Position numbers and translations under genes: made by a program. A stretch of 44,017 bases of DNA, taken from the UHGV virus genome UHGV-1381044; one strand, given 5' to 3'. The notes under the pieces are model-generated. The model worked only from the letters and a program-made list of their open reading frames with translations. It ran no database searches and was not told the DNA's origin. The stretch's first letter is position 1. Every line of letters begins with the position of its first letter. Positions 1,868 to 37,145 of the stretch are shown one piece after another. The DNA is from a virus.

Positions 1868-2292
1868 TTTATCACCTCCATCATTGTTGTGTTTCGTTCG
1901 GTTTTGTGTTACCATTGTTATGCCTAAACGGCAAAGGAAGGAGTGGTTATCATTGACCAAACTTTTGAATTTGCCTGTTCCCTTTGCTTCTAACCCGCCC
2001 ACACTGAAACCTCGACAGTCAAAACAGGTCAAAGGCGGCTCTGGTTGTTTTGTCAGCGATTAGGCATGTTGCAGAACCAAGACTGCTAAAGTGACAAGGT
2101 GCTTCAAGAAGCATTTGGTCTCGTCAGATGCGGCGTTAGCCTGCAAGGTACATAGGGTAAACAAATTTGGTAAAGAACTGTTAGGGACGAGACCCCTAGC
2201 AGTTTCTTTTTGCATCAAATCCGATAAGAGACTGATGAAACCGACACTTTCATCAGTTTTCTTTTTGCCCGGAATGGTGCTCTGGACAACTT

Positions 2293-3548: not shown

Positions 3549-3725
3549 GGGGGATGTTTGGGATTGCACTACTTTTACGTGGGCCGTTATGGTAAAGGTA
3601 TCCTTTTTATATTTACTGCTGGGTTTTTCGGCATTGGATGGGTTTCAGACATATCAAAAATTTTGAAAGGGCGATTTGTCGATCAGTACGGTGCCCCGTT
3701 GATTGAGTGGTGATCTTATTTAGAA

Positions 3726-4391
3726 ATGATTGAGAAAGATGAAAAGCGAATTTTAGAACGCAAAGAGATTGAAAAGAATAGAGAAATTCAAGAAGAGAAC
3801 AAAAGAAAATTAAATTATTCTTTTACCATAAAAGATATGGAACAATTTAGCGAAATACCCTTTGAATGGTGCTGGGTAGATACCTTATCATACTCCAACG
3901 GCATTGCTTGGTTTATGTTAAACAAGAATAATCAATATATTGCCTTATCTGTTTTGGATTTTATTAACCAGATTTTAGTCAAATCTAAAGCTTATACAGG
4001 ATTCACAAAAAAATTGTATATTTGCACAGAAAACATAAATTTTGATTTTCCGGTTCCAATGCACAAGGATAGTCTTCCTTGGACATATGTGCAGTGTGTA
4101 CCTTATACTCCAAAAATGAAACTATCAAAGCATCCGGCAGTTTTACATTTTTGCGAATACGCTACCAAAAAAGAATACTGTGGTTTTGAATCATATGTCT
4201 ATTGTTCTCTTGGAGAGATATTTTTTATGCAGGATGGGAATATAGGGAAAGCCAATTTAGACATACCGCCTTATAAAATCCAAATCAGGCTTCATGGATT
4301 AAATTTAATTGTTAAGAGAATTGACAAATTTACCTCAATGGGGAATATTAATATCTACAAATTTAATCCTAAGGAATATAATGCTTTTTGA
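3726..4391 (+). CDS. AT-rich hypothetical protein of 221 aa. A moron, with no recognisable domain.
   Basis: Long ORF with much lower GC than the flanks, located between the immunity genes and int. Confidence 0.55.
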   Translation: MIEKDEKRILERKEIEKNREIQEENKRKLNYSFTIKDMEQFSEIPFEWCWVDTLSYSNGIAWFMLNKNNQYIALSVLDFINQILVKSKAYTGFTKKLYICTENINFDFPVPMHKDSLPWTYVQCVPYTPKMKLSKHPAVLHFCEYATKKEYCGFESYVYCSLGEIFFMQDGNIGKANLDIPPYKIQIRLHGLNLIVKRIDKFTSMGNINIYKFNPKEYNAF

Positions 4392-4665: not shown

Positions 4666-4678
4666 GTGATATTATCAC
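4666..4678. promoter_or_regulatory. Perfect palindrome GTGATA-T-TATCAC overlapping the predicted int promoter (TATAAT at 4692-4697). TATCAC/GTGATA half-sites also occur at 957-962, 4612-4617 and 4697-4702.
   Basis: Read directly from the sequence. Confidence 0.45.
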
Positions 4679-4782
4679 GAACCTACACCCGTATAATATC
4701 ACATTTCCAAGCAGTCACGCAAGATAAAATAAAAAAAATCTGGTGGCTGTATTTTTTATACCCAAAAAAGGAGTGTGCAACT

Positions 4783-6024
4783 ATGGCAAAAGCAAAAAAA
4801 TTACCTTCCGGATCATGGCGCGTACTGGTGTTTGACCACTACGAGCCTGTCTTAAATCCAGACGGAACACCCGTCATGCAAAACGGAAAACCGAAGCAAA
4901 AAAGAATCTACCAGTCCTTTACAGATGATGACCCATCAATTAAAGGGCGCAAACGGGTCGAATTGGCAGCTGCACAATACATGGCAGAGAAAGATTCACG
5001 TGAAGCGGAAAGGCGCAACCAAGAGGCGAATATGACGCTTAGAGGGGCGGCAAAAAAATATATAGATCTGTGCAGAACACTGAAAAGGTCTCCATCCACT
5101 ATAGAAGACTATGAGTGCATCATGCGGAACGGGTTCCAGGATCTTTTTAACATGCGCCTGTGTGACATATCAGAAGAGCTTCTGCAAAATGCCATAGCCA
5201 AAGAAGCGCAGCGGCCTGTCAACGGGAAGCCAGGCAAGACCCTTACAGCAAAGCGGCTGAAAAATGAGTGGGGGTTTATATCCTCTGTGCTCCACAAGTA
5301 CACAGACATCCGCACAGACAACTTGCAGCTACCTACACCAACACAAAGAATGGTTGACCTTCCAGATGCAAAAACGGTTATGGATATAGTCCGCGGCACC
5401 GAAATGGAGCTGCCGGTACTGCTTGCAATGTGGCTGTCGTTCACAGCCTCAGAAATCCGCGGCCTTACAAAGTCCAAATCCATTAACGGCGATTACATAA
5501 CGATAAAAGAGACGGTCGTAACCGTAAATGGAAAAGCTGTAAGAAAAGAAACAGCGAAAAACAACACGCGAAAACGCAAACACAAAATACCGGCTTATAT
5601 AAAAGGTCTGATTGACAAGGTTCCCGGAGATGTACTGGTGCCGATGACTGACGTTGCACTGCACCACCGCTGGAAACGCTTGCAAAAAATCCACGGTATA
5701 AAGGACCCTATCACTTTTCACGATCTGCGGCACCTCAATGCCTCTGTTATGGCCCTGCTGCAAATACCAGACAAATACGCCCAGGAGCGCGGCGGCTGGA
5801 AGTCGGATGCCGTTATGAAAAAAGTCTACATGCAGACATTTTCAGCTGAGCGGCAAAAGGTTGATGATAAAATTGACAGCTACTTTGAGAGTATCGTAGG
5901 AACCGAAAAAAGCGAAAAAGAATCCATAAAAGAAGTTGTGAACCGGCTAAAAAAGGAAGATCCGGAGGGATGGAAAAAAGCTGTTTTGGAAGCTATGCAA
6001 CACGAAATGCAACACGCGCAATAA
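4783..6024 (+). CDS. int: Tyrosine site-specific integrase (phage integrase family), 413 aa. The ORF track begins it at GTG 4666.
   Basis: RBS aaaggag lies 9 nt before ATG 4783. The C-terminal catalytic region HDLRHL...GGW...KKVYMQ (R-H-R-Y type) is present, and an attP-like region lies immediately downstream. Confidence 0.9.
   Translation: MAKAKKLPSGSWRVLVFDHYEPVLNPDGTPVMQNGKPKQKRIYQSFTDDDPSIKGRKRVELAAAQYMAEKDSREAERRNQEANMTLRGAAKKYIDLCRTLKRSPSTIEDYECIMRNGFQDLFNMRLCDISEELLQNAIAKEAQRPVNGKPGKTLTAKRLKNEWGFISSVLHKYTDIRTDNLQLPTPTQRMVDLPDAKTVMDIVRGTEMELPVLLAMWLSFTASEIRGLTKSKSINGDYITIKETVVTVNGKAVRKETAKNNTRKRKHKIPAYIKGLIDKVPGDVLVPMTDVALHHRWKRLQKIHGIKDPITFHDLRHLNASVMALLQIPDKYAQERGGWKSDAVMKKVYMQTFSAERQKVDDKIDSYFESIVGTEKSEKESIKEVVNRLKKEDPEGWKKAVLEAMQHEMQHAQ
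5993..6020. repeat. 28-bp direct repeat, copy 1: CTATGCAACACGAAATGCAACACGCGCA. It contains ATGCAACACG twice. Candidate Int arm-type sites.
   Basis: Read directly from the sequence. An identical copy lies at 6198-6225. Confidence 0.8.
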
Positions 6025-19855: not shown

Positions 19856-19929
19856 TGGACCGCCAGGGACTTGAACCCCGGACCATCCGGTTATGAGCCG
19901 GACGCTCTGGCCAACTGAGCTAGCGGTCC
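19856..19929 (-). tRNA. tRNA-Met(CAU): tRNA with anticodon CAU (Met elongator, or Ile2 if lysidinylated). 74 nt, CCA not encoded.
   Basis: The RC folds as GGACCGC-TA-GCTC-AGTTGGCCA-GAGC-G-TCCGG-CTCATAA-CCGGA-TGGTC-CGGGG-TTCAAGT-CCCTG-GCGGTCC-A. G1-C72 is paired, so it is not an initiator. Confidence 0.85.
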
Positions 19930-20256
19930 TAAAATGCCTGGCATGATTACATACCAGGCATTTACAAGGGGAAAAGAAAAACTCTGCTTATAGCAGCAGA
20001 ATCCTCGCTGCGGTCGTAAGCCGCATTAACAGCCTATCAGCTACGAGGTGAAAGGAGGAAATTCAAGGCCAGTCAAAGCTCTTGAATTTTGATCTGGCAA
20101 GCGCACGCCGGAAATTTCATCCGCTTTTCAACCTCCAGGAATGACCTGTTTATATTAAGGACGTGCGCGGGAGGTGTGTGAGAAAACCATGAAAAGTAAC
20201 CAATCCTCTTCACATCTACATTCTACCATTTATCTATAAGTACCTTGTCCACACAT

Positions 20257-27539: not shown

Positions 27540-28967
27540 CTATTCTTCGTCAAACAGCTTTCTTTCGTCTGGCTGCGCTTCCTCAACCATAGCCTTCGCA
27601 TCATCTTTCGTCATGCCCTCAAACTTAACAAAGTAGTACCACGCCGGGACCTTGCCTTGCGTAACATACTGCCACCAGCGGCTCCGGTCTGCTTCCCGGT
27701 CATACAGGATGTCACCAAAGTCATATGTAACCTCATAAGACCCTACAGGTGACAGGTTGTAAAGGTCTGCGTATACGTTAAGTGCGTATATGGTGGCATC
27801 AAGGCACGCTTCCAACTGATCGCGTACATCCTTGATAAACTGTACGGTGCGCTGTTGGTCAGCTTCCACGCCTGTAGCCGTCTGGATGCCGGAAGACTCA
27901 TTAAATACAAAGTACCCATTTGCAAATCCGGCCTTGTATCCTATCTGGCTTAACAGGTTATTGATACCCTTGATTCTGGCATCGGTGTTAAGCTGTGGGT
28001 TAATCTCCTGGTAGAATTCCTTTGCATCGTTGCCAAACACATTCTTAACGTAATGTGGAAGCCCAACCGCATCCGCCGGGCCACGGTGTTTTATCTTCTG
28101 CCCGCTCTCATACATCAGTCTATCATCAGCCAGTATGATCTTCTGGCTGTCAAATATCTCTCCCGCATTCCGGCTGTATGCTATATCAAGATCTTTCAGT
28201 TCCTCTACGGCTTCGCGGAATATCGGAAGCCCCAATGGGGATGATATATCTACGTTGTTTGCCTGCGGCGTGCGGAAGATACCGAACATTGGCTTGTCCA
28301 GTGGCTCCCCGGATGCCTTAAGAATCGGCGGCGTGTCCTCCAACATATCAGCCCATTTCGTCTTCGTCAGCGGCACCGGATCACCAAGGCTCTCAGCAGA
28401 TTTAGAAACGTATGCCCGGTTACTCACATAGTAGGGGTAGAGCGTCACGCCATCCTGTACCGTCTCCATAAACCGGTGATACTCCAGACGGGTGTACCAT
28501 TTCTTCCCGGACTGGTAGCTGTCCTTGAAGATGATGCCGCGCACATCCAAGTTGTCATAGTCAACAAGCAGCACGTCCGCCGGGGTGAATACATCCAGGC
28601 TTGTGCCGTTTGGCTTCAAAAACACGGTTCCGTATGCGCATCCGTACTCCACCCAGTCGCGGAGCTTCGCGTAGACAAGGTCTATCTGCTGCTGCAACCA
28701 CGTTGCACGGGTGCTGCCCTCCAGATGTATTCCGATACCCAGTGTTGTCAGACGGGCAGTTTCAGAGCAAAGCGCTTTTGCAAAGTTGATGGTCTTAATG
28801 CCCTCATCATCGTCCAACCACTCCGGCTGACCGTGGTATATCTTCGCACACTGGTCTATAGCTTTTTCCATCTCTGGAGATACGATGGATTCCACATCAA
28901 AGTCGTTCTCTGCCTGCCGTTTAAAAATCATGCTAAACCACCTTTTTATCGTTGATAAGATTCCCAT
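27540..28967 (-). CDS. Portal protein.
   Basis: 475 aa, directly downstream of the terminase gene with an ATGA overlap. Confidence 0.7.
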   Translation of the reverse strand: MGILSTIKRWFSMIFKRQAENDFDVESIVSPEMEKAIDQCAKIYHGQPEWLDDDEGIKTINFAKALCSETARLTTLGIGIHLEGSTRATWLQQQIDLVYAKLRDWVEYGCAYGTVFLKPNGTSLDVFTPADVLLVDYDNLDVRGIIFKDSYQSGKKWYTRLEYHRFMETVQDGVTLYPYYVSNRAYVSKSAESLGDPVPLTKTKWADMLEDTPPILKASGEPLDKPMFGIFRTPQANNVDISSPLGLPIFREAVEELKDLDIAYSRNAGEIFDSQKIILADDRLMYESGQKIKHRGPADAVGLPHYVKNVFGNDAKEFYQEINPQLNTDARIKGINNLLSQIGYKAGFANGYFVFNESSGIQTATGVEADQQRTVQFIKDVRDQLEACLDATIYALNVYADLYNLSPVGSYEVTYDFGDILYDREADRSRWWQYVTQGKVPAWYYFVKFEGMTKDDAKAMVEEAQPDERKLFDEE

Positions 28968-30601
28968 TATGCACTATTCCCCCGTCTCTCCCACAGCGAT
29001 TCCGTAGCGTAACGGGCCGCATCAATGAGATGGTTATTTTTGTCTGGATATCCGCTTATGACATTGCCGTCCTTATCCCGCTCGTACTCATACTCTTTAA
29101 ATTCTTTACAAGCGTTAGGCGTTCTGTTCGGATCCATGACAAATTTTTTCCCTTGTAACCACTTCATTGAGTACTCAATGCTGCCAGGTCCTTTATGTGC
29201 TGCTCTGGCTGGTAGCCCTGAATCTCTGTAATCCTCAACAGATTTTGGCTCTGCACTATCGCATGTTATAACATAGTCGTCATATTTGCGCCGTTTGATT
29301 TCGGCGGCTGTCCAGCTGTTCTTTTTCTTGTTTTCACAAATCTCGTCTATAAAGTATATGGTTTCACGCGCCGAATCGTAATATATCCTTACAAAAGCAT
29401 ATTTGTCTGGGTACCATCCCCAGTCAACGCCTTGATATATGCGATCCATAATTTTAATTTCTTCATCTGTGATAGTGCGCTCTTCGATAAATTCAAAGAC
29501 ATTGCCACCGTTTCCGTTTGCTTCTCCCATATACTCATTTTCGTATGCACTCGGATTAACCTCTTTTAGATGTTCTGCATCGTTAAGGAACTCCTCCCCC
29601 AGCCAGTCAGCAGGGACATCTTTATATGTACTTCGCATAACAACGGCACTTGCGTTTTTAAACTCTGCCTCTACAGTATATTTATTGGCCCAGTTGATCT
29701 TGCTTCTCGGTGGGTTAAATGACTTAAACTTATATGCTTTGTCGCCGCCACGTATAGCGGACTGCTGAATACTTCTTACTTCTTCCGGTCCGGCAAACTG
29801 GTCCAACTCTTCAAACCATACGATACCGATATATCCAAACTTCGGTTTAATCGATTTGATCTTAATCGGGTCATCTGCACCTCGAAAATAGATTTTTTGC
29901 CCAGTTGGCTTGTATGTGATCTCAAAAGGAGATTGCTTGAATTTAAACTCTGCATCAAGACCAAGCTTTGAGATAGCCCATTGCAACTGAGCATACACAG
30001 AGTCTTTTATAGTGTTACCGACTTTTCGCAGCACAAGCGCATGCATATCAGGATGCTTTTTTATCAGCTCCGGGATAATGCATGATATACAAGACGATTT
30101 CGAAGATCCTCGCCCGCCTGGGAGTACATACTCCGTATGCATACCGCGCCGGATGTCGCGAATCATCGGGTGGAATACATCCGCCACCACATCAAGATCA
30201 ATATGGTATTCTTTTGCCGTTCTGGCTTCCTCTTCTGCCTTCTGCTGTGCTTCTTTTTCCTCTTTTACGGCTATAGCTTTCTCCAAATCGGACATGGCCT
30301 TTAGCTGTTCGGAAAAAGCCGGAGCGAAGCCAAAAGAATCCTTTACTTCCCCCCGTGCGATCATGGCGCGGCGCTTCTGGATATCAGCAAGGGACATGGT
30401 GTCAGTACCGTTGAGTTTATCCACTTCGGCTTGCTTTTCGGCTATATAGGATGCAATTTTACTATTTTTTAGTAGCTTTCCTGCGTTTGTTCCTGCGTTT
30501 CTCTCCGAATAACCCGCTTTTCTCGCCGCCTCAGAAGCGTTCCCGCCATTCGCTATGTAGTTGTCTGCAAACGCTTTCTGCTTCGGCGTAAGCTCACCCA
30601 T
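28967..30601 (-). CDS. Terminase large subunit (PBSX-type) with an N-terminal TerS-like (Terminase_2) DNA-binding domain fused in-frame.
   Basis: The N-terminus LTPKQKAFADNYIANGGNASEAARKAGYSE is a TerS-type HTH. The Walker A motif LPGGRGSSKSS lies about 150 aa in. It is a single 544-aa ORF. Confidence 0.8.
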   Translation of the reverse strand: MGELTPKQKAFADNYIANGGNASEAARKAGYSERNAGTNAGKLLKNSKIASYIAEKQAEVDKLNGTDTMSLADIQKRRAMIARGEVKDSFGFAPAFSEQLKAMSDLEKAIAVKEEKEAQQKAEEEARTAKEYHIDLDVVADVFHPMIRDIRRGMHTEYVLPGGRGSSKSSCISCIIPELIKKHPDMHALVLRKVGNTIKDSVYAQLQWAISKLGLDAEFKFKQSPFEITYKPTGQKIYFRGADDPIKIKSIKPKFGYIGIVWFEELDQFAGPEEVRSIQQSAIRGGDKAYKFKSFNPPRSKINWANKYTVEAEFKNASAVVMRSTYKDVPADWLGEEFLNDAEHLKEVNPSAYENEYMGEANGNGGNVFEFIEERTITDEEIKIMDRIYQGVDWGWYPDKYAFVRIYYDSARETIYFIDEICENKKKNSWTAAEIKRRKYDDYVITCDSAEPKSVEDYRDSGLPARAAHKGPGSIEYSMKWLQGKKFVMDPNRTPNACKEFKEYEYERDKDGNVISGYPDKNNHLIDAARYATESLWERRGNSA

Positions 30602-30619
30602 TTACTCACCGTCCCGTCA

Positions 30620-30877
30620 TTACTTCCAGTCCTCCAGCGCTTCCCACATCTCTTTCAGTACCATAACAACATCCACCTGTGATGCCGTCCGAATGATCTC
30701 ATAGTCCTTTGTCTTCCACTTATCCCGCACGTATTGCAGTGTAGGTGTACTCACGCTGTACATGGTTATCATCCGGTTCTGGTCTGCGCTGTAAAACTGG
30801 CTCGTGCCTATCTTTGTTACAAACCGCTTTGTGAGCAACGCTCTTTGCAGCTTTCTTTGTATCTGGTTAAGGTTCAT
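30620..30877 (-). CDS. Hypothetical protein of 85 aa upstream of the terminase gene.
   Basis: ORF. Confidence 0.4.
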   Translation of the reverse strand: MNLNQIQRKLQRALLTKRFVTKIGTSQFYSADQNRMITMYSVSTPTLQYVRDKWKTKDYEIIRTASQVDVVMVLKEMWEALEDWK

Positions 30878-31411
30878 ACTATCACCCTATTTTCATTTTA
30901 TTTCGATTCAAAAAAGACGTATCACCATTTTTGTGATAATACGCCTTTCTGATTGCGCTAAATGTTAATATTAAAGTAATTTCATTCAAGTTACCATCAA
31001 CAACTGATGTTAATCAAAAAGTTTATAACGCTACAGATCTGACTAATTATTTTATTTTAGGGTGGTGTGTGCATAAAACGGATCAGGTGTCCTCAATCTG
31101 GATTTGGAATCCTGAACATGTATCTCAATTATACATTGATTCAGATGGAGTGTTTGTAACCGTTATTAGCTCGTATGTTTTTGGTCAAGAATGTAAAGTT
31201 GTATTGCACCGTATATGATCATTTAAATAAATTTATAGCAGTTACTATATAACAGAAATAAGCACCCAATTTTACTTGGATGCTTATTTCCCATCTTTCG
31301 ATGCACTCCTTTGATAGCGATCAGTTTGCATAAATGCTTCTGAACGCTGACTAAAGTATATCACAATGATTGCGGTATTCAAGATGTAATTAAATAATCA
31401 TATAAATCTTT

Positions 31412-32155
31412 TCAATCTTTCGGAGGAAATTTTTTGTATTTTTTTCCAATATTTTTCAATTCGTCTTCCCAGCCTTCATGACTGTTTATGTACTCTCCAT
31501 AGATTTTTGACTCAGCTTCTTTTCTGGCAGCGGCGGCGTCATCTAAGTTACTATACGTGCCTAGCTGATATTGTTTCCGCCTGAAATTTATATAAGCTCT
31601 GTATTTGCCGTTTTTCTGGAGTGATACTCCATTTACTTTCGTACTAGAGTTTTTATTAACTGTCCCTTTCATCCTTGATTTAACGCTTATCAAAGAGGAT
31701 CCATCCGTAATAAAAACTGATTGCATATCCGCTAAGAACTCACCGGTATTACGATGGCAATTTATACATGTATGAATATACGGCAATCTAGACAAACAAG
31801 TTTCGCTTTCCTTGCCGCACGCAGGGCATATTACTTTGCAAAAAGTCCGATTTTTGCCACGACATACCTTTTTTTCAACGCTCAATACTTTGAAGCCATT
31901 AATAGTTGTTCCAACTTTCTCCTGTGCTTTTTTCCATTTTAGATCGTACGCCTTCTGCCTATAGTTTTTTCCAAAATTCTCTCTGCTTTTGCATCCGCAA
32001 GATGTCGATATCCCTCTTGCTAAAACATTTTTTGGGACATCTCTTATAGTGCCACAGACGCATTTGCATTTAACGTATCCTGGTTTGGAATCCAGTGAAA
32101 TTACTTCCCATCTTCCAAATTTATCTCCTAATTGAATATTGTATTTACTGCTCAT
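31412..32155 (-). CDS. HNH/AP2-domain homing-endonuclease-like protein of 247 aa.
   Basis: It has two Cys-rich zinc-ribbon repeats (CKCVCG...SCGCKS and CKVICPACG...CINCH). The C-terminal AP2 domain is YRAYINFRRKQYQLGTYSNLDDAAAARKEAESKIYG. GC is low. Confidence 0.7.
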   Translation of the reverse strand: MSSKYNIQLGDKFGRWEVISLDSKPGYVKCKCVCGTIRDVPKNVLARGISTSCGCKSRENFGKNYRQKAYDLKWKKAQEKVGTTINGFKVLSVEKKVCRGKNRTFCKVICPACGKESETCLSRLPYIHTCINCHRNTGEFLADMQSVFITDGSSLISVKSRMKGTVNKNSSTKVNGVSLQKNGKYRAYINFRRKQYQLGTYSNLDDAAAARKEAESKIYGEYINSHEGWEDELKNIGKKYKKFPPKD

Positions 32156-32294
32156 AAGCCTTTAAAGCCTCGCACAGCTCATCTGCTTCATCTTCAGAAA
32201 GACCATATTCACTCATGAGTTCTTCTTTATCTTCGCTTCTCCATCCTCCATCATAAAGAGCTGCTGCATCATACTGATTGTTCATATCCATCAT
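32145..32294 (-). CDS. 49-aa highly acidic protein MMDMNNQYDAAALYDGGWRSEDKEELMSEYGLSEDEADELCEALKAYEQ (cassette copy 1).
   Basis: RBS GGAGGATAAGAAA precedes the ATG. It has 15 acidic and 3 basic residues. Its last 14 nt overlap the start of the HNH-AP2 gene. Confidence 0.5.
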   Translation of the reverse strand: MMDMNNQYDAAALYDGGWRSEDKEELMSEYGLSEDEADELCEALKAYEQ

Positions 32295-32338
32295 TTTCTT
32301 ATCCTCCTTGTTTTTTCTGTACTTCCTTAACTGTCTTT

Positions 32339-32367
32339 ATTATATACTTACGGAAGTATATTGTCAA
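32339..32367 (-). promoter_or_regulatory. Consensus promoter TTGACA-17-TATAAT on the minus strand. The 20-bp perfect palindrome ATATACTT-ACGG-AAGTATAT fills the spacer.
   Basis: RC of 32362-32367 is TTGACA and RC of 32339-32344 is TATAAT. Confidence 0.6.
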
Positions 32368-32390
32368 TAGGTTTTGTGAAAAAAATTAAT

Positions 32391-32612
32391 TCACAAAGTA
32401 TTTCCCGTATCCCGTAGATATTTTTCCCTTACCGCTTCCATTATGTAGCTATTCTGAGAAAGATATCCTTGATCTGTTGCGATTTCCTTTATACGCGCTT
32501 TCAGTCCTTTCGGAACCGTAATTTCCATGCGATCATAATTGCTATCACGGTACTTGTTTTTGGCCGCTGTAGCCGCCGCTCCTCTTGGAATGCTTTTTTT
32601 ATCTGTAACCAT
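32391..32612 (-). CDS. Ribbon-helix-helix (CopG/Arc/ParG-like) DNA-binding protein of 73 aa.
   Basis: RHH-like segment MEITVPKGLKARIKEIATDQGYLSQNSYIMEAVREK following a basic disordered N-terminus. Confidence 0.55.
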   Translation of the reverse strand: MVTDKKSIPRGAAATAAKNKYRDSNYDRMEITVPKGLKARIKEIATDQGYLSQNSYIMEAVREKYLRDTGNTL

Positions 32613-33096
32613 TTTGTGTTCCTGCTACTAAAAACATATACAAATATGCATATGCTAGATGATTTGCTATAATCTCACGATTTATAGTTACTGTTTCAAC
32701 GTGTATGCTTTGGTGGTTAAAAGTAACACACTACTCACAAGTTCTTGTACACTCCACAGTCGTAAATTCCCGACTTAGCCATCGGTACACATCTGTAAAT
32801 TCATATATTTGATTAGATACAGATTTCACCTAAGTAGTTTTTCCTTTCTTAATATTTTATGTTTTGCTACTTGGTTTTCGTAGACTTCTACCATTGTCCA
32901 AACGTCACCATCAAGGTTCTATCCTATAATTAGCAAGGCTGTTCCAACTTGCACTGGTTACTTCTCGACGTTTCCGACTGCTTTGACGTTAGCACAAACG
33001 AATACTCTGGATTTTGAGTATATTTGAACCTATTTGTTCACATTTAATTGTATTTTTAGTTACTTATCTTTCCTCCTAAATCTTCGAATATTGTAT

Positions 33097-33246
33097 TTAC
33101 TGCTCATAAGCCTTTAAAGCCTCGCACAGCTCATCTGCTTCATCTTCAGAAAGACCATATTCACTCATGAGTTCTTCTTTATCTTCGCTTCTCCATCCTC
33201 CATCATAAAGAGCTGCTGCATCATACTGATTGTTCATATCCATCAT
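33097..33246 (-). CDS. Identical 49-aa acidic protein (cassette copy 2).
   Basis: Same sequence as in copy 1. Confidence 0.5.
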   Translation of the reverse strand: MMDMNNQYDAAALYDGGWRSEDKEELMSEYGLSEDEADELCEALKAYEQ

Positions 33247-33290
33247 TTTCTTATCCTCCTTGTTTTTTCTGTACTTCCTTAACTGTCTTT

Positions 33291-33319
33291 ATTATATACT
33301 TACGGAAGTATATTGTCAA
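33291..33319 (-). promoter_or_regulatory. Identical consensus promoter with operator palindrome (copy 2).
   Basis: Identical sequence to copy 1. Confidence 0.6.
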
Positions 33320-33414
33320 TAGGTTTTGTGAAAAAAATTAAAAAAGGCACAATCCCCTCCATTCAAGTTTCTAAAAAGGAACTATCTAGAAAGTTCATGT
33401 GCCTTGTGTTTTTA

Positions 33415-34027
33415 TTATAGTACTAATCCTGGATGAGTTAATGCTCCGTTTTGGTCCGGAGTAAGAACTATAGGATCTGTAGCCATGCGGCCGGTCTGAT
33501 CCAGATAATACCACTTTCCGTTGATTGTCTGAAGGCCTTTGAGCATGGCACCGTCGGAGCCGAGGTAGTACCAGGAACCTTTGTATTGATACCAGACGTC
33601 ATGGACCATGAAACCGGCGCCATCGAACCAGTACCAGAGATCCCCGTCTTTGTACCAGTCATTGGAAACGTATTTTCCAGAACCGTCTTTTAAGTAAAAG
33701 CGCCAACCTCCGTTTTCCTGCTGCCAGCCGGTCTTTACCTGCTCTGGTACCCAGACTTTCATAAACTCTTCCGGAGTTTTATAGAGTTTTTTTACCCCAC
33801 TGGTGATAACTGCTGTAGCTGCTGCCCGGGGCATTGGTCACGATATTTCCCGGTGTTGTCCGCCCCTGAGCGTATAAAGCATCTTGCTCTGCTTTTGTCC
33901 TGAGAGTTTCCCCGATTTTGATCTGCAAGCCTTTGGCGGCACACTTGGAAATCAATTCTGCTGCCAGTTTCTGTAAACGTGGGTGGCACAAAGATATATC
34001 TCTCATAATTTCGCCTTTCTGTTGCAC
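33415..34027 (-). pseudogene. Decayed endolysin. An N-terminal fragment of an M15 (VanY / L-Ala-D-Glu peptidase-like) domain runs up to the first zinc-ligand His. It is frameshifted at an A7 run into a choline-binding-type cell-wall-binding repeat domain.
   Basis: ORF 33779..34027 ends ...ETLRTKAEQDALYAQGRTTPGNIVTNAPGSSYHQWGKKTL*, which matches M15 peptidases up to SYH but lacks the downstream Asp and His ligands. ORF 33415..33834 in the -1 frame carries WYWFDGAGFM and GSWYYLGSDGAML repeats. The two frames meet at ggtaaaaaaactc. Confidence 0.55.
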
Positions 34028-34036
34028 CGATGCAAC

Positions 34037-34168
34037 TTAGTATTTTTCTCCCGTCAACTCCTGATACTCTTCTTCTGTCAGTTTACCAGCCTGTACCAAA
34101 GTTCTAAGTCTGTCTTTGTCCCAGTATTCTGGATAATATTTTTCGGCCATTTTCTTTACGCTTAACAT
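34037..34168 (-). CDS. XkdX-family small protein of 43 aa. It is not in the ORF track.
   Basis: RBS TAAGGAGG precedes the ATG. MLSVKKMAEKYYPEYWDKDRLRTLVQAGKLTEEEYQELTGEKY matches the XkdX signature W..D......V..G.IT.EEY.E.TG. Confidence 0.6.
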   Translation of the reverse strand: MLSVKKMAEKYYPEYWDKDRLRTLVQAGKLTEEEYQELTGEKY

Positions 34169-34180
34169 ATGCGCTCCTCC

Positions 34181-34591
34181 TTATAAATCGGTTCCTGTCA
34201 TTACGGCTAAAAAGTCTATGTCAGCCCTGTTGTGCTTCACCTGCTCTGCCACGCCTGGCTGGGAGAGGATCAGTGTCACAGCTCTACCTGTTACAGCTTC
34301 AGTTTTTACGCTGCCGTCATCGTTATACGTTGTAGGCTGTATCTGTGCATTGTCATTTACACTCTTCGGATTGTCCAAAACAGTATAGCCATCATACACG
34401 GCTAATGTCTCCCCAGTGCTATTGATGATTTTTATCTGATCTGTGTTGGCAGTGTTAGAAAAGATGGCGATCAGATCTTCAAGGTTGTCAGCCGACAAAA
34501 ATGTCAGCTTAAGGCTGTCACTAAACGCATCAAGCCCGTTTACTACTAAATCAAATTCTTTTTCATTTTTTAACTTGATTTTTTCGTTCAT
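34181..34591 (-). CDS. Hypothetical protein of 136 aa upstream of xkdX (XkdW-position).
   Basis: ORF. Confidence 0.45.
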   Translation of the reverse strand: MNEKIKLKNEKEFDLVVNGLDAFSDSLKLTFLSADNLEDLIAIFSNTANTDQIKIINSTGETLAVYDGYTVLDNPKSVNDNAQIQPTTYNDDGSVKTEAVTGRAVTLILSQPGVAEQVKHNRADIDFLAVMTGTDL

Positions 34592-34811
34592 TCTTTTTTC
34601 CTTTCTTTTTCTTTTGTTTTTTTACTTAATATATGCGATTTTTCTGTTTCTATTACTCAACTAAATAGTGATTTCATTACCTTTCGATACCCCAACCCCA
34701 ATCCAACTTTTGCCCGCATTGCCAGCAGAATGTATACTTTTCTATCACTTTCTTTCCCACTAAGCTGAAAAACTTCACCTCGTTCTGCTCAGCTCTGCAT
34801 TCTGGGCACAT

Positions 34812-35981: not shown

Positions 35982-37019
35982 TTAAATCTGTACCATTTCT
36001 CGGACATTTCTTAACGTCTTCGGTGTAGACTGCGCATAATACATGCTTGTTACTGCCGGGCTTGCATGTCCAAGGATTTCCTGAATGATACCAATATCAA
36101 CCTTTCTGTTCTTCAAATTCATGCCAAGTGTTTTTCTCATTTTATGAGGATATACAGCGCTTTTCACCGCTGCCCGCGCTCCGATGTCCTTAATGATTTT
36201 TCGGAATCCGCTCACACTCATTTTCCCGTGAGGCGCTTTCGACTGCGGGAACATATACGGGCTGTTGTCTGTTCTGCTCTCCAAATATTCGTTGTAGTAA
36301 TGCCGCGCATCATCGTCCAGATATAACGTGCGGTATCTGCCGCCCTTTTCTCCTTTAATGAGGATATCTCCCGTTTCTGTGTTGATCTGGTCAATCCTGA
36401 TCTCTGCGATTTCTCCGACCCGCGCCCCGGTGCTGCGGAATACTTCAATGATTGCACGCTCTCTTTTAGTGCGGCATGCATCCCGCATCTGGATAATCTC
36501 CGACCGGCTAAAGTAATCAATAGGCTTTAGCGCAATCTTTTTCGCTTCTGTTGCTTCCACCGGATTTTCATCAATAAGTTTTGATTTTCGCATCCATGTG
36601 TAAAAAGCCGAAAGGAATCTGCGTTCGTTATTATATGTGCTGTCCTGCACCTTTTCGCTTTTTGTACCTGGGCGTTTCTCGTACTGTGCTATATACCATT
36701 CCACGTCAAATGTATCTACACTGTCCAACGACTTTCCTACCATATTAGATAACCTTTTTACAGATCGTATATACCCGTTGATTGTCGCAGGACTGAGCCC
36801 GCGCTTCTTGATCTTGAAAAGCTCCAGTAAATAGCGGTTTCTCTTTTCTATGTCGTTCTTCCACTCTGCTGGAAGGGATGTGATTTCCTGCACATTTACC
36901 TTTGTAAGCTCACTCGATACTACACTATCCAGGATAGCAAGTGTGTCCGAATCAGAAATGTAAATCGACATTGCAACAATAATGTTATCAACAATTCCTC
37001 TTTTGATATTCTGGCCCAT
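35982..37019 (-). CDS. Second tyrosine recombinase (XerC/D / phage-integrase family), 345 aa. The ORF track extends it to 37115.
   Basis: RBS GGGAGGA precedes ATG 37019. Catalytic residues are present in ...RVGEIAEIRIDQI...HKMRKT...GHASPAVTSMYYAQ. Confidence 0.8.
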   Translation of the reverse strand: MGQNIKRGIVDNIIVAMSIYISDSDTLAILDSVVSSELTKVNVQEITSLPAEWKNDIEKRNRYLLELFKIKKRGLSPATINGYIRSVKRLSNMVGKSLDSVDTFDVEWYIAQYEKRPGTKSEKVQDSTYNNERRFLSAFYTWMRKSKLIDENPVEATEAKKIALKPIDYFSRSEIIQMRDACRTKRERAIIEVFRSTGARVGEIAEIRIDQINTETGDILIKGEKGGRYRTLYLDDDARHYYNEYLESRTDNSPYMFPQSKAPHGKMSVSGFRKIIKDIGARAAVKSAVYPHKMRKTLGMNLKNRKVDIGIIQEILGHASPAVTSMYYAQSTPKTLRNVREMVQI

Positions 37020-37145
37020 AGTAATCCTCCCTCTTGCAGAATCTGCAAAGGTCTGATACAATGGACCTAAGCAGATCAGGTAAGTGGCGGTAACATCTTG
37101 GCGGGTGTCCACCACTTATTTTTTTGTGTCATTGTCTAACTCCCT

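What the first reader, a model, noticed from the sequence alone, without database searches (positions are those of the whole stretch)
32134..33341. A perfectly duplicated 256-bp cassette (consensus promoter + operator palindrome + 49-aa highly acidic ORF) flanks an RHH regulator gene, an anti-defence (Acr/Ocr-like) locus architecture
Two 100%-identical 256-bp copies lie at 32134-32389 and 33086-33341. Each carries a textbook TTGACA-17-TATAAT promoter whose spacer is a perfect 20-bp palindrome (ATATACTTacggAAGTATAT). Each has a strong RBS and a 49-aa ORF with a net charge of about -12, consistent with a DNA-mimic. Between the copies lies a ribbon-helix-helix DNA-binding gene at 32391-32612. A strong constitutive promoter gated by a palindromic operator, a small acidic protein and an adjacent small DNA-binding autorepressor form the hallmark layout of anti-CRISPR/anti-restriction loci (acr-aca), which the RHH protein would fill as the Aca-like repressor. 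Copy 1 runs straight into the HNH-AP2 endonuclease gene, with the acidic ORF's last 14 nt overlapping the HNH start. Copy 2 retains only the first 22 nt of that HNH ORF. The duplication boundaries therefore look like a homing or recombination footprint.
Basis: partly seen in the sequence, partly recalled or inferred. Interest (0 to 1): 0.8.

Follow-up and report, generated by a model that had tools for sequence, protein, structure and literature searches.

The report
Duplicated phage cassette hosting a mini-transposon
A gut phage carries two identical copies of a strong, repressor-gated promoter driving a tiny acidic protein of unknown function, and a 451-base transposon remnant carrying only a TnpB guide-RNA scaffold has inserted between the copies, exactly at the ribosome-binding site of the repressor gene.

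Summary
The 256-nt perfect duplication, the consensus promoters, the 49-aa acidic ORFs and the RHH gene are all real. They recur in independent assemblies. The cassette is a portable promoter/operator/leader-gene module.

The operator TATACTT-N4-AAGTATA accompanies RHH homologues in five lineages. There it sits in their own promoters and in those of neighbouring accessory genes. RHH repression is therefore well supported.

An anti-defence role for the acidic protein is plausible but untested. The family is large and phage-borne, folds as three helices, and has no annotated relative.

The "HNH-AP2 endonuclease" has no HNH domain. The "homing footprint" reading is not supported.

It holds a 451-nt IS607-family element without tnpA or tnpB (window 33072..32622, minus strand). 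This element carries a RAGATH-18 guide-RNA scaffold and a covariation-supported 5' RNA domain of unknown class. It sits directly after AGGAG, which is both the RHH Shine-Dalgarno and the known TnpB TAM. Near-identical phages lack it.

The family has 51 distinct left flanks (candidate insertion sites) among the copies recovered. Nearly all lie between an AGGAG and a start codon.

Verdict: a regulated accessory locus of known logic plus a new variant of a guide-RNA-bearing mobile element.

The parts
33086..33341 (-). Cassette copy 2 (upstream): promoter, operator, leader, acidic ORF and 11 nt beyond its stop codon
   Evidence: 100% identical to copy 1. The same cassette recurs in type A, B and C relatives.
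32134..32389 (-). Cassette copy 1 (downstream), which runs into the AP2/Zn-ribbon gene
33291..33319 (-). Promoter of copy 2: -35 TTGACA 33319..33314, 17-nt spacer, -10 TATAAT 33296..33291
   Evidence: 12/12 match to the consensus
32339..32367 (-). Promoter of copy 1: -35 at 32367..32362, -10 at 32344..32339
   Evidence: 12/12 match to the consensus
33294..33313 (.). Operator of copy 2: ATATACTT-ACGG-AAGTATAT (8-4-8 inverted repeat) filling the promoter spacer and overlapping the -10
   Evidence: Sequence. The motif co-occurs with RHH homologues in five lineages.
32342..32361 (.). Operator of copy 1 (identical to that of copy 2)
33097..33246 (-). 49-aa acidic ORF, copy 2 (LYDGGWR...EY.LTeeEAd.lCe.L domain)
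   Evidence: ORF. The family has 544 cluster representatives. AF2 gives a three-helix model, pLDDT 81.
32145..32294 (-). 49-aa acidic ORF, copy 1; overlaps the AP2 ORF start by 11 nt
33073..33077 (-). AGGAG: the original Shine-Dalgarno of the RHH gene and the TAM of RAGATH-18-type IS607 TnpB, immediately 5' of the inserted element
   Evidence: Junctions. TAM from Ren et al. 2024, PMC11061315. 42 of 51 distinct left flanks carry AGGAG at this position.
32622..33072 (-). 451-nt non-autonomous IS607-family element (no tnpA, no tnpB): left end, structured 5' RNA domain, reRNA scaffold and right end
   Evidence: Absent from otherwise 98-99% identical type B and C loci. It is 77% identical over its full length to a copy in Butyrivibrio phage Ceridwen. 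Further copies recovered: 77 with both flanks.
33041..33072 (-). Left end of the element (GAAAGATAAGTAACTAAAAA...), sharing the TAAGTAACTAA and TTAAATGTGA motifs with full-length IS607 left ends
   Evidence: Comparison with the A. rectalis IS607 (L036) and with L153
32836..33040 (-). Structured 5' RNA domain of unknown class (8 helices)
   Evidence: 43 pairs, 20 of them with compensatory changes. 98.7% of cells are paired, against 26-47% in the slid controls and 0/500 shuffles. No Rfam family at E<=10.
32622..32831 (-). reRNA (TnpB guide RNA) scaffold: 5' flank hairpins, RAGATH-18 core, 3' flank hairpins, and right-end terminus ...TTTTTAGTAGCAG
   Evidence: 80-87% identical to reRNAs lying directly 3' of tnpB genes (L036, L037, L086, L153). 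Compensatory pairs.
32688..32760 (-). RAGATH-18 core (Rfam RF03064)
   Evidence: 74.3 bits, gathering score 44.9, E 3e-13
32602..32621 (-). Predicted 20-nt guide (GAACACAAAATGGTTACAGA), the right-end flank; it spans the RHH start codon (32612..32610)
   Evidence: Position by analogy with the reRNA architecture in Ren 2024. In type B phages the identical 20-mer follows AGGAG, forming a TAM plus target. It is unique in the window.
32391..32612 (-). 73-aa RHH repressor gene
   Evidence: phrog_13890 at 2.7e-17 and Arc-like phrog_582 at 4e-5. Homologues hit PF10723 and PF03869. The AF2 model is helix-strand-helix-helix. Its top fold matches are VapB, NikR, PrpA, Arc and ParD RHH domains at rmsd 1.6-2.3 A.
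31412..32155 (-). 247-aa protein: N-terminal CxCxCG..SCGC domain, CPxCG..CxxC Zn-ribbon, C-terminal AP2 domain; no HNH domain

Best explanation
Two things are superimposed here.

(1) A repressor-controlled accessory locus. Two tandem operons share an identical 5' module made of a consensus sigma-70 promoter, an 8-4-8 operator in the spacer and -10, a leader and a 49-aa acidic gene. The first operon continues into a ribbon-helix-helix repressor gene. The second continues into an AP2/Zn-ribbon DNA-binding protein gene.
- The RHH dimer is inferred to bind TATACTT-N4-AAGTATA and to shut both promoters.
- The acidic protein would then be made in a burst on entry or induction and kept low afterwards.
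- The acidic protein is the payload. It belongs to a large, phage-restricted, uncharacterised three-helix domain family. Its target is unknown; anti-defence or host takeover is the leading guess.
- The duplication itself is best explained by modular recombination between two operons that use the same portable module. No dedicated function need be assumed for it.

(2) A selfish insertion. In this phage lineage, a 451-nt non-autonomous IS607-family element has landed exactly between the Shine-Dalgarno AGGAG and the ATG of the RHH gene.
- It encodes no protein. It carries a TnpB guide-RNA (reRNA) scaffold with a RAGATH-18 core, preceded by a roughly 200-nt structured RNA domain.
- It has no promoter of its own and is read from the upstream cassette promoter.
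- Its guide is the 20 nt after its right end, which is the start of the RHH gene.
- With an IS607 TnpB supplied by the host or by another element, this RNA would direct cleavage of element-free alleles (AGGAG plus the same 20-mer, as in type B phages). Recombinational repair would then copy the element in. TnpA supplied in trans would move it to new AGGAG sites.
- Displacing the RHH Shine-Dalgarno probably lowers repressor synthesis. That would raise transcription of both cassettes and of the guide RNA.

Shown: the sequence anatomy, the insertion polymorphism, the TAM and target-site rule, the RNA covariation, and the operator-RHH co-occurrence.
Inferred: DNA binding by RHH, TnpB loading and cleavage in trans, the effect on RHH translation, and the payload function.
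For: Cassette and regulator:
- Perfect repeat and consensus promoters.
- The operator occurs in the window only at the two promoters at <=2 mismatches.
- The same motif, as full palindromes and TATACTTNCG half-sites, lies within 150 nt upstream of RHH homologues. It also sits in the spacer of TTGACT/TTGATT-17-TATAAT promoters of unrelated neighbouring small genes. This holds in four other lineages: P0066, P0032, P0027 and P0076, at 57-76% identity.
- RHH fold.
- A related architecture has been demonstrated for the RHH regulator Aca14.
- The module is portable. Acidic homologues are followed by an AP2-Zn protein (L020), a 65-aa RHH-like protein (by inspection; no significant Pfam hit) (L028), a protein with a C-terminal RHH_1 domain (L030) or a 125-aa unknown (L025). 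They are usually (four of five lineages) next to lysis or integrase genes.
- A single-cassette relative, L009, exists.
- Acidic family size and fold.

Element:
- RAGATH-18 match at 74 bits.
- RAGATH-18 RNA is the scaffold of the IS607 TnpB guide RNA, and the TAM is AGGAG (PMC11061315).
- Empty site AGGAG|GAACACAAAATGG against the occupied site.
- Full-length IS607 copies with tnpA and tnpB share the left-end motifs, the reRNA and a right-end 21-mer (shared by L153 and 5 other tnpB-bearing loci; the A. rectalis L036 right end differs).
- 77 full copies and 51 distinct left flanks. 42 carry AGGAG at the left-end boundary, and the first ATG/GTG/TTG follows mostly within 0-12 nt.
- At least 6 near-identical copies (contigs) in one genome, UMGS615.
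- Covariation across the whole element.
- No TnpB is encoded in the window.
Against: - There are no experimental data of any kind.
- RHH-operator binding rests on co-occurrence only.
- No TnpB or TnpA is encoded in the window and the host is unknown. Trans-activity of the element here is therefore an assumption.
- The element could be a currently inert passenger.
- How genes downstream of such insertions are translated is unexplained. The Shine-Dalgarno is moved 451 nt away, yet Butyrivibrio phage Ceridwen, deposited as an isolated phage with a named host strain, carries one in front of a 708-aa gene.
- The 5' RNA domain has no assigned role.
- The payload function is unknown. The acidic family was not found in plasmids and has no annotated relative.
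- In the window lineage the RHH gene lies downstream of the payload, but in the other four lineages it heads its own operon.
- Evidence for concerted evolution of the copies is a single shared substitution.
Confidence: 0.7

Rival explanations
1. One reading: the locus is an anti-CRISPR or anti-restriction (acr-aca or Ocr-like) locus. The 49-aa acidic protein would be a DNA mimic that blocks a host nuclease, and the RHH would be its Aca-type repressor.
For: - Layout of strong promoter, IR operator, small acidic gene and small DNA-binding gene.
- RHH-type Aca14 precedent, with an IR overlapping the -10 and control of adjacent operons.
- Location in the lysis/integrase accessory region.
- The family is widespread in phages, including 5-kb Microviridae genomes.
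- The downstream partners are mostly DNA-binding proteins, as expected for aca-like genes.
Against: - No similarity to any solved Acr, Ocr or ArdA protein, or to any family library.
- 49 aa and three short helices do not give a B-DNA-like surface.
- The invariant Trp, Arg, Gly-Gly, Tyr and Cys suggest a specific fold or ligand rather than generic charge mimicry.
- RHH against Aca14: BLASTP finds nothing, and hhalign gives probability 6% (E 0.006).
- Here the small gene is the conserved member and its partner varies, the reverse of the usual acr-aca pattern.
Confidence: 0.25
2. The acidic protein is a dedicated partner of the DNA-binding protein encoded just downstream (RHH, AP2-Zn and others). 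It would act as an anti-repressor, a DNA-mimicking modulator or a chaperone, rather than on host defences.
For: - In four of five gene contexts, the next gene encodes a DNA-binding protein (two assigned by inspection, not by a family hit). The spacing is short or overlapping, for example an 11-17 nt overlap with AP2 and a 22-nt spacer to RHH in type B.
- The proteins have opposite charges.
Against: - The partners belong to unrelated folds (RHH, AP2/Zn, a 125-aa unknown).
- RHH homologues in four other lineages have no acidic gene next to them.
- The domain also occurs fused or in tandem in larger proteins and in Microviridae, without such partners.
Confidence: 0.15
3. The 451-nt element is an ORF-less IStron-like element. 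Its structured 5' domain would be a self-splicing (or otherwise self-removing) RNA that restores the SD-ATG junction in the mRNA. That would explain why insertions between Shine-Dalgarno and start codon are tolerated.
For: - IS607-family IStrons have a ribozyme at the left end and the guide RNA at the right end. Engineered ORF-less versions splice scarlessly (bioRxiv 10.1101/2023.11.20.567912).
- The mini-element has the same order of parts and a strongly covarying 5' domain.
- It ends in G.
- It is found at 51 distinct left flanks, mostly SD-ATG junctions, including one in phage Ceridwen (deposited as an isolated phage with a named host strain).
Against: - No group I or any other Rfam ribozyme match at E<=10 in 8 copies.
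- The 5' exon ends in G or A, not U.
- No conserved sequence complementary to AGGAG was seen.
- The helix topology (a three-way junction enclosing two hairpins) does not resemble P3-P9.
Confidence: 0.12
4. The duplication is a footprint of homing or recombination by the adjacent 'HNH-AP2' endonuclease, or was created by the inserted element.
For: - AP2 domains are typical of phage HNH homing endonucleases. Distant cousins at 25-33% identity do carry HNH_3.
- The whole tandem module occurs at 98-100% identity in at least four different right-flank contexts.
Against: - The window protein has a Zn-ribbon where the cousins have HNH, and no HNH hit even at E<=1.
- Homing copies a gene and its flanks and does not make tandem duplications.
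- The duplication is present without the element in type B loci.
- IS607 makes no target duplications.
- A 6-nt TAATTT microhomology at the junction in L009 points to illegitimate recombination.
Confidence: 0.05
5. The acidic gene and the RHH gene form a toxin-antitoxin or abortive-infection module.
For: RHH proteins are common antitoxins and autoregulators. The best fold matches include VapB and ParD.
Against: - No PADLOC hit.
- A 49-aa protein with net charge -12 is an unlikely toxin.
- The gene order is the reverse of RHH-antitoxin systems.
- RHH homologues elsewhere stand alone with unrelated neighbours.
Confidence: 0.03

Closest known systems
acr-aca operons regulated by the RHH-type regulator Aca14 (bioRxiv 10.64898/2026.07.27.740549)
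   Same: A small RHH protein with an N-terminal helical extension. An inverted repeat overlaps the -10 of a strong promoter. The same site is repeated in a neighbouring operon, so one repressor controls two operons. The payloads are small accessory genes in mobile elements.
   Different: No demonstrable sequence relationship: BLASTP finds nothing and hhalign gives 6% probability. The hosts are Firmicutes phages rather than Pasteurellaceae and other proteobacteria. The payload is not a known Acr, and no function has been shown.
Phage P22 immI region: Arc and Mnt RHH repressors acting on Pant (from my own knowledge)
   Same: A phage RHH repressor whose palindromic operator lies between the -35 and -10 of a strong promoter, giving a transient burst followed by shut-off.
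   Different: In P22, arc precedes its payload (ant), and the payload is an antirepressor of known function. Here the payload comes first, is duplicated, and has unknown function.
IS607-family TnpB with RAGATH-18-derived guide RNA (reRNA), e.g. ISFba1 (Ren et al. 2024, PMC11061315)
   Same: A RAGATH-18 core with conserved 5' and 3' flanks, the right end immediately followed by the guide, an AGGAG TAM abutting the left end, and no target-site duplication.
   Different: No tnpA and no tnpB, only 451 nt in total. The ORFs are replaced by a structured RNA domain of about 200 nt. The element is carried on phage genomes and must rely on proteins supplied in trans.
IS607-family IStrons such as CboIStron and CseIStron (Zedaveinyte et al., bioRxiv 10.1101/2023.11.20.567912)
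   Same: A structured RNA at the left end and a guide-RNA scaffold at the right end. Insertion into expressed genes in the sense orientation. ORF-less derivatives retain their RNA functions.
   Different: The 5' domain is not a recognisable group I intron. The TAM is AGGAG rather than TGGG. Insertions lie at SD-ATG junctions rather than inside coding sequence. Splicing has not been shown.
Non-autonomous derivatives of IS200/IS605 (PATEs or MITE-like elements) and stand-alone omega-RNA loci (from my own knowledge)
   Same: Short multicopy elements that keep the transposon ends and depend on transposase, and possibly nuclease, supplied in trans.
   Different: A different transposon family (serine recombinase). 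This element keeps a complete guide-RNA scaffold and has gained an extra structured domain. Its target sites are ribosome-binding sites.
HNH-AP2 phage homing endonucleases
   Same: The C-terminal AP2 DNA-binding domain and the N-terminal Cys-rich domain are shared with HNH_3-bearing cousins.
   Different: The central HNH_3 nuclease domain is replaced by a CPxCG...CxxC zinc ribbon, so no nuclease motif is present.
DNA-mimic anti-restriction and anti-CRISPR proteins (Ocr, ArdA, AcrIIA4; from my own knowledge)
   Same: Small size, strong negative charge, and expression from an early strong promoter of a mobile element.
   Different: No sequence or fold similarity. The protein is much smaller than Ocr or ArdA, and its conserved Trp/Arg/Cys core is not typical of charge mimics.

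Membership tests
Non-autonomous IS607-family element carrying a TnpB guide RNA (reRNA) | RAGATH-18 core motif | tested here: met
   Rfam RF03064 at 74.3 bits, above the gathering score of 44.9, with full-length model coverage. The same holds in 7 other copies.
Non-autonomous IS607-family element carrying a TnpB guide RNA (reRNA) | reRNA 5' and 3' flanking motifs, as found 3' of tnpB genes | tested here: met
   80-87% nucleotide identity over about 170 nt to reRNAs directly downstream of annotated tnpB genes (L036, L037, L086, L153). Compensatory pairs occur in the flank hairpins. The pseudoknots PK1 and PK2 of Ren 2024 were not checked.
Non-autonomous IS607-family element carrying a TnpB guide RNA (reRNA) | AGGAG TAM abutting the left end, with the guide being the right-end flank | tested here: met
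   Window: AGGAG|left end...GCAG|GAACAC... The empty site in type B is AGGAG+GAACACAAAATGG. 42 of 51 distinct left flanks have AGGAG at the boundary. TAM from PMC11061315.
Non-autonomous IS607-family element carrying a TnpB guide RNA (reRNA) | Left-end and right-end termini shared with autonomous IS607 copies; no target-site duplication | tested here: met
   The right-end 21-mer is identical in 6 loci that have tnpB upstream. The left-end motif TAAGTAACTAA is shared with L153, and TTAAATGTGA and TTYAAATATACTCAAA with L036. Flanks differ between sites apart from the TAM.
Non-autonomous IS607-family element carrying a TnpB guide RNA (reRNA) | Encodes TnpA and/or TnpB (the test for autonomy) | tested here: not met
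   No ORF longer than 32 aa lies in the element, and that ORF is not conserved. There is no TnpB or serine recombinase anywhere in the window. The element is therefore non-autonomous.
Non-autonomous IS607-family element carrying a TnpB guide RNA (reRNA) | The RNA binds TnpB and guides cleavage; the element is mobilised by TnpA | not testable with these tools
   This needs RIP-seq, interference assays and excision assays. Indirect support comes from the clean presence/absence polymorphism between near-identical phages and at least 6 near-identical copies (contigs) in one genome.
Group I intron / IStron | Group I ribozyme core, with U at the 5' splice site and a terminal G | tested here: not met
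   No Intron_gpI or other ribozyme hit at E<=10. The exon ends in G or A. Only the terminal G is present.
acr-aca anti-defence operon | The payload is homologous to a validated Acr or anti-restriction protein | tested here: not met
   No hit in Pfam, PHROGs, NCBIfam, PADLOC or PDB sequences, or by Foldseek against PDB and BFVD. No dedicated Acr library (dbAPIS, AntiDefenseFinder) was available.
acr-aca anti-defence operon | A co-encoded small DNA-binding regulator whose inverted-repeat site lies in the operon promoter | tested here: met
   The RHH gene lies in the operon. The 8-4-8 IR sits in the spacer and -10 of both promoters. Motif and RHH co-occur in five lineages. Binding itself was not tested.
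acr-aca anti-defence operon | The payload inhibits a defence system | not testable with these tools
   This requires plaque or transformation assays.
Aca14 (RHH-type Aca) | Sequence homology to Aca14 of Pasteurella multocida | tested here: inconclusive
   The sequence was taken from the preprint's supplementary Table S2. BLASTP gives no alignment. hhalign of the RHH family profile gives 41 in-register columns, 20% identity, E 0.006, probability 6%.
Ribbon-helix-helix (Arc/MetJ/CopG) repressors | A beta-alpha-alpha fold with family-level HMM support | tested here: met
   phrog_582 (Arc-like) at 4e-5. Homologues hit PF10723 and PF03869. NikR RHH region at 0.003. The AF2 model has pLDDT 86-96 over residues 30-73. 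The best fold matches are RHH domains, though their E-values are not significant for so small a domain.
HNH-AP2 homing endonuclease | AP2 DNA-binding domain | tested here: met
   PHROG 'HNH endonuclease' families match only residues 166-236. Close homologues hit PF00847.
HNH-AP2 homing endonuclease | HNH (His-Me finger) nuclease domain | tested here: not met
   No HNH hit at E<=1. In alignment A4, the HNH_3 segment of the distant cousins P0333 and P0339 is replaced by a Zn-ribbon in the window protein and its close relatives.
Ocr/ArdA-type DNA mimic | An elongated, DNA-like array of acidic residues or a known mimic fold | tested here: inconclusive
   The net charge of -12 is met. The model is a compact 49-aa three-helix unit with no significant structural neighbour. 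The oligomeric state is unknown.

The most novel reading that the evidence does not exclude
The 451-nt element may represent an undescribed class of protein-less, guide-RNA-bearing mobile elements that specialise in the gap between Shine-Dalgarno and start codon. Two readings remain open.

- Its covarying 5' domain could be a new kind of self-removing or translation-restoring RNA, which would make such insertions phenotypically silent.
- On phage genomes it could act as a gene drive. By borrowing a host TnpB, an element-bearing phage would cut and convert, or out-compete, element-free sibling phages.

In this window it would additionally rewire the RHH circuit that transcribes it.
Probability: 0.2. 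Interest if true: 0.85.

Novelty: new variant of a known kind. Interest (0 to 1): 0.6.

Why it matters
(1) The locus supplies a clean, testable regulon. One RHH family and one 18-bp operator control several unknown small phage genes in gut Lachnospiraceae phages. That extends the recent finding that RHH proteins, and not only HTH proteins, gate accessory or anti-defence operons. It also flags a very large uncharacterised acidic domain family (hundreds of clusters, even in Microviridae) as a priority for anti-defence or host-takeover screens.

(2) About a third of RAGATH-18 RNAs are not next to a TnpB gene (Ren 2024). At least part of that fraction now looks like a family of miniature IS607 derivatives. 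These keep the guide RNA, have gained a structured RNA domain, multiply within genomes and ride on phages.

(3) Because the TAM equals the Shine-Dalgarno sequence, these elements systematically sit in ribosome-binding sites. That raises a concrete open question: how is the downstream gene still expressed?

(4) The natural pair of element-plus and element-minus phages is a ready-made system for testing TnpB-driven homing in trans and phage-against-phage competition.

Tried and rejected
- **Assembly artefact or chance repeat:** rejected. The repeat recurs in many independent contigs.
- **cos/pac or packaging role for the cassette:** rejected. Only in the window lineage is it next to the terminase. 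Elsewhere it abuts an integrase, a host gyrB gene or a ParB-methylase gene.
- **HNH endonuclease label:** rejected.
- **Duplication caused by the inserted element:** rejected. Type B loci have the duplication without the element.
- **Group I intron or any known ribozyme or RNA family for the 5' domain:** no Rfam hit at E<=10 in eight copies.
- **Conserved small ORF inside the element:** the 32-aa ORF at 32731-32829 is not conserved in other copies.
- **TnpB or TnpA in the window:** none found, only two tyrosine recombinases.
- **Defence-system membership:** PADLOC gives no hit for the window proteins; its only hit is LmuB at E 0.0046 to a relative's 125-aa partner.
- **Annotated relatives of the acidic protein:** none in Pfam, PHROG, NCBIfam or PDB sequences, or by Foldseek against PDB and BFVD.
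- **Larger proteins carrying the acidic domain:** Pfam scans gave only one GGACT fusion.
- **tblastn of a consensus acidic sequence against plasmids and phages:** nothing found, probably because of low-complexity masking.
- **Payload genes of the other RHH lineages:** no functional annotation.
- **Homology of the RHH to Aca14:** inconclusive.
- **tRNA at the L009 prophage junction:** none found.
- **Single-sequence MFE of the element:** not informative, z = -1.65.
- **Literature search:** no description of TnpB-less RAGATH-18 elements was found in the searchable library.

Full report
**Observation**

All relevant features lie on the minus strand.
- A 256-nt direct repeat (32134-32389 and 33086-33341) is 100% identical.
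- Each copy reads TTAATTTTTTTCACAAAACCTA-TTGACA-ATATACTTCCGTAAGTA-TATAAT-...-AAGGAGG-8 nt-ATG.
- The two promoters are the only 12/12 consensus matches in 30500-34700.
- The inverted repeat has two perfect 8-nt arms around a non-palindromic 4-nt centre, and it overlaps the -10 by 3 nt.
- The 49-aa ORF has 15 acidic and 3 basic residues.
- The acidic ORF of copy 1 overlaps the next ORF by 11 nt.
- The duplication recurs in contigs from many samples and assemblers, so it is neither chance nor an artefact.

**Natural variants define the parts**

The exact 49-aa protein is on about 190 contigs, and ten loci were fetched. Three architectures occur at 98-100% nucleotide identity.

| Type | Loci | Layout |
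|---|---|---|
| A (as in the window) | L002, L004-L007 | cassette, 451-nt insert, RHH, cassette, AP2 gene |
| B | L003, L008, L010, L011 | cassette, 22-nt spacer with AGGAGG, RHH, cassette, AP2 gene |
| C | L009 | one cassette and RHH, then unrelated DNA |

- In type C the sequence diverges 6 nt into where copy 1 would begin, after a shared TAATTT.
- The tandem module has at least four different right flanks: 85-aa gene and terminase; ParB-methylase and terminase; an integrase; and host gyrB.
- Type B copies share one substitution (G239A) relative to type A in both copies. That is a slight sign of homogenisation.
- I read the duplication as two operons sharing one portable 5' module, joined by illegitimate or modular recombination. 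It is not a homing footprint.

**The regulator**

- The 73-aa protein matches phrog_13890 and the Arc-like phrog_582.
- Its homologues carry PF10723 or PF03869.
- The AF2 model is an N-terminal helix followed by strand-helix-helix.
- Its best fold matches are RHH domains (VapB, NikR, PrpA, Arc, ParD) at rmsd 1.6-2.3 A. The E-values are not significant for so small a domain.

The decisive evidence is comparative. RHH homologues of 57-76% identity in four other prophage lineages were examined (P0066, P0032, P0027, P0076).
- All have TATACTT-NCGN-AAGTATA palindromes or TATACTTNCG half-sites just upstream of their own gene.
- The same sites lie inside the spacer of TTGACT/TTGATT-17-TATAAT promoters of neighbouring, unrelated small genes of 79, 108, 149 and 170 aa.
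- Where the flanks are known these loci lie between the lysis module and the integrase.

The RHH and this operator therefore travel together as a regulon switch for accessory genes.

This matches the logic shown experimentally for the RHH regulator Aca14. Homology to Aca14 is unproven, however: BLASTP finds nothing and hhalign gives probability 6%.

**The payload**

- The acidic domain (AAALYDGGWRseDreeLmsEYxLTeeEAdelCeaL) has invariant A11, L13, G16, G17, R19, E29, Y30, E36, A37, C41 and L44.
- An exhaustive profile search finds 544 representatives at E<=0.001. Most are 46-60 aa. Some are tandem or attached to variable acidic regions, and one is fused to a GGACT domain.
- AF2 gives three helices at pLDDT 81.
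- There is no annotated relative in any library, and no significant fold neighbour except uncharacterised phage proteins.
- The domain even occurs in Microviridae.
- Homologues in four of five sampled lineages lie in accessory regions next to lysis or integrase genes; a fifth (P0016) is in the early region of a DNA-polymerase-B phage. In each case the gene is followed by a variable partner. The partners seen are an AP2-Zn protein (overlapping), a 65-aa RHH-like protein, a protein with a C-terminal RHH_1 domain and a 125-aa unknown.

This fits an anti-defence or host-takeover payload, or a partner of DNA-binding proteins. Neither reading is tested.

**The 'HNH-AP2' gene**

PHROG 'HNH endonuclease' hits cover only the AP2 part, residues 166-236. 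Pfam finds no HNH even at E<=1. Distant cousins with HNH_3 align end to end. Their HNH segment is replaced here by a CPxCG...CxxC zinc ribbon. The protein is therefore a DNA-binding protein without a recognisable nuclease domain.

**The missed element**

- Rfam places RAGATH-18 at 32760..32688, at 74.3 bits.
- RAGATH-18 is the core of the guide RNA (reRNA) of IS607 TnpB nucleases. Their TAM is 5'-AGGAG, and their guide is the sequence just beyond the right end (PMC11061315).
- Aligning type A with type B gives an exact 451-nt insertion at 33072..32622. The empty site is TTTAGGAG|GAACACAAAATGG, where ATG is the RHH start. The occupied site is TTTAGGAG|GAAAGATAAGTAAC...TTTTTAGTAGCAG|GAACACAAAATGG.
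- The insertion thus lies directly 3' of the TAM, which is also the RHH Shine-Dalgarno.
- The predicted guide (32621..32602) equals the target in type B phages and is unique in the window.
- The window encodes no TnpB or TnpA.

Relationship to full-length IS607:
- A full-length copy in an A. rectalis plasmid has tnpA, tnpB and reRNA, and is inserted as AGGAG|...GGCAG| nine bases before the pflA start codon. It shares left-end motifs and the reRNA.
- A metagenome scan with the right-end 21-mer returned 120 loci. Of these, 48 are complete mini-elements. Six have tnpB directly upstream, one of them with tnpA as well. One of these has the left end AGGAG|ATATTACTAAGTAACTAA.

Distribution of the family:
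- Copies occur in Butyrivibrio phage Ceridwen (77% identity over the full length, upstream of a 708-aa collagen-repeat gene), in 20 IMG/VR contigs and in 17 genome contigs.
- The genome contigs come from Lachnospiraceae and relatives. They include at least 6 near-identical copies in one genome, UMGS615.
- Of 77 copies with both flanks there are 51 distinct left flanks. 42 have AGGAG at the left-end boundary and 5 more have a GGAG-like variant.
- The first ATG, GTG or TTG follows the right end mostly within 0-12 nt.

RNA structure:
- RNAalifold on 14 copies predicts 103 pairs, 33 of them with compensatory changes.
- The region upstream of the reRNA (window 33040..32836) forms 8 helices. 20 of its 43 pairs show double changes. 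98.7% of cells are paired, against 26-47% in the slid controls and 0/500 shuffles.
- No Rfam family matches this domain.

**Mechanism proposed for the element (inferred)**

- It is transcribed from the copy-2 promoter, since no terminator was flagged between them.
- The RNA would be loaded by a TnpB supplied in trans, and would target element-free alleles for cleavage and recombinational copying.
- TnpA supplied in trans would move it to new AGGAG sites.
- The insertion replaces AGGAGG-8-ATG by GCAGGAA-...-ATG. This probably weakens RHH translation and so de-represses the promoters that transcribe the element.

**Unexplained**

It is unclear how genes behind such insertions remain expressed. 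Phage Ceridwen, a deposited isolate with a named host strain, carries one. IS607 IStrons offer a precedent for removal at the RNA level. However, no group I features are detectable here.

**Verdict**

- The anti-defence claim remains a hypothesis.
- The HNH and homing claims fail.

Noticed in passing
window 2049-2208 (+): Full-length Rfam match to FuFi-1 RNA (136.5 bits, gathering score 59.6), lying among plus-strand genes near a tyrosine recombinase gene.
   Followed up: no
window 19856-20169 (-): A roughly 480-nt non-coding island inside the structural gene block. It holds a tRNA-Met (19856-19929) and, 170 nt upstream, a RAGATH-21 RNA (20100-20169; 79.8 bits, gathering score 70.3). This is a second RAGATH-class RNA in the same phage.
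   Followed up: no
window 33415-34027 (-): The endolysin upstream of cassette copy 2 is split into an 82-aa VanY N-terminal fragment and a 139-aa choline-binding-repeat ORF in another frame. The relative L009 has an intact 256-aa VanY/M15 plus choline-binding lysin. This is probably a pseudogene brought in with the cassette.
   Followed up: partly
window 28967-30601 (-): A single 544-aa ORF combines a Terminase_2 (small subunit) N-terminus with the Terminase_3 and Terminase_3C large-subunit domains.
   Followed up: no
window 4666-6024 (+) and 35982-37115 (-): There are two tyrosine-recombinase genes in one 44-kb phage. The second sits in the middle of the minus-strand gene block, a few genes upstream of the lysin remnant.
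   Followed up: no
L059, L060, L065, L066, L068, L070 (uncultured Clostridium sp. UMGS615): One genome assembly holds at least six copies (contigs) of the mini-element, 98.6-100% identical to the window copy, at different AGGAG sites. This indicates recent proliferation and points to a possible host lineage.
   Followed up: partly
L082, L110, L138, L147, L154 and about 30 other metagenome loci: Variant mini-elements share the right end and reRNA but have different or rearranged 5' parts. For example, similarity starts only at element position 114 or 136, and L147 has an extra hairpin insertion. The family is modular.
   Followed up: partly
L020-L024, position about 2918: Upstream of an acidic-AP2 operon that lacks an RHH gene lies a related inverted repeat, TATACTT-TACA-AAGTAcc. 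Either an RHH encoded elsewhere acts there, or another protein recognises a similar site.
   Followed up: no
L076 (Microviridae MG945868) 3610-3939: A 110-aa ORF directly after VP1 in a 5.3-kb microvirus contains the acidic LYDGGWR domain.
   Followed up: partly
L036 (A. rectalis plasmid NZ_CP143948) 1645-3668: A full-length IS607 (tnpA, tnpB, reRNA) sits between pflB and pflA. It is inserted after AGGAG, and its right end lies 7 nt before the pflA ATG. So even autonomous copies occupy SD-ATG junctions of metabolic genes.
   Followed up: partly
window 33342-33415 (-): Between the lysin remnant and cassette copy 2, an AAGGCACA...TGTGCCTT stem with a long loop is followed by a T-run. It may be a terminator, but the consensus scan did not flag it.
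   Followed up: no
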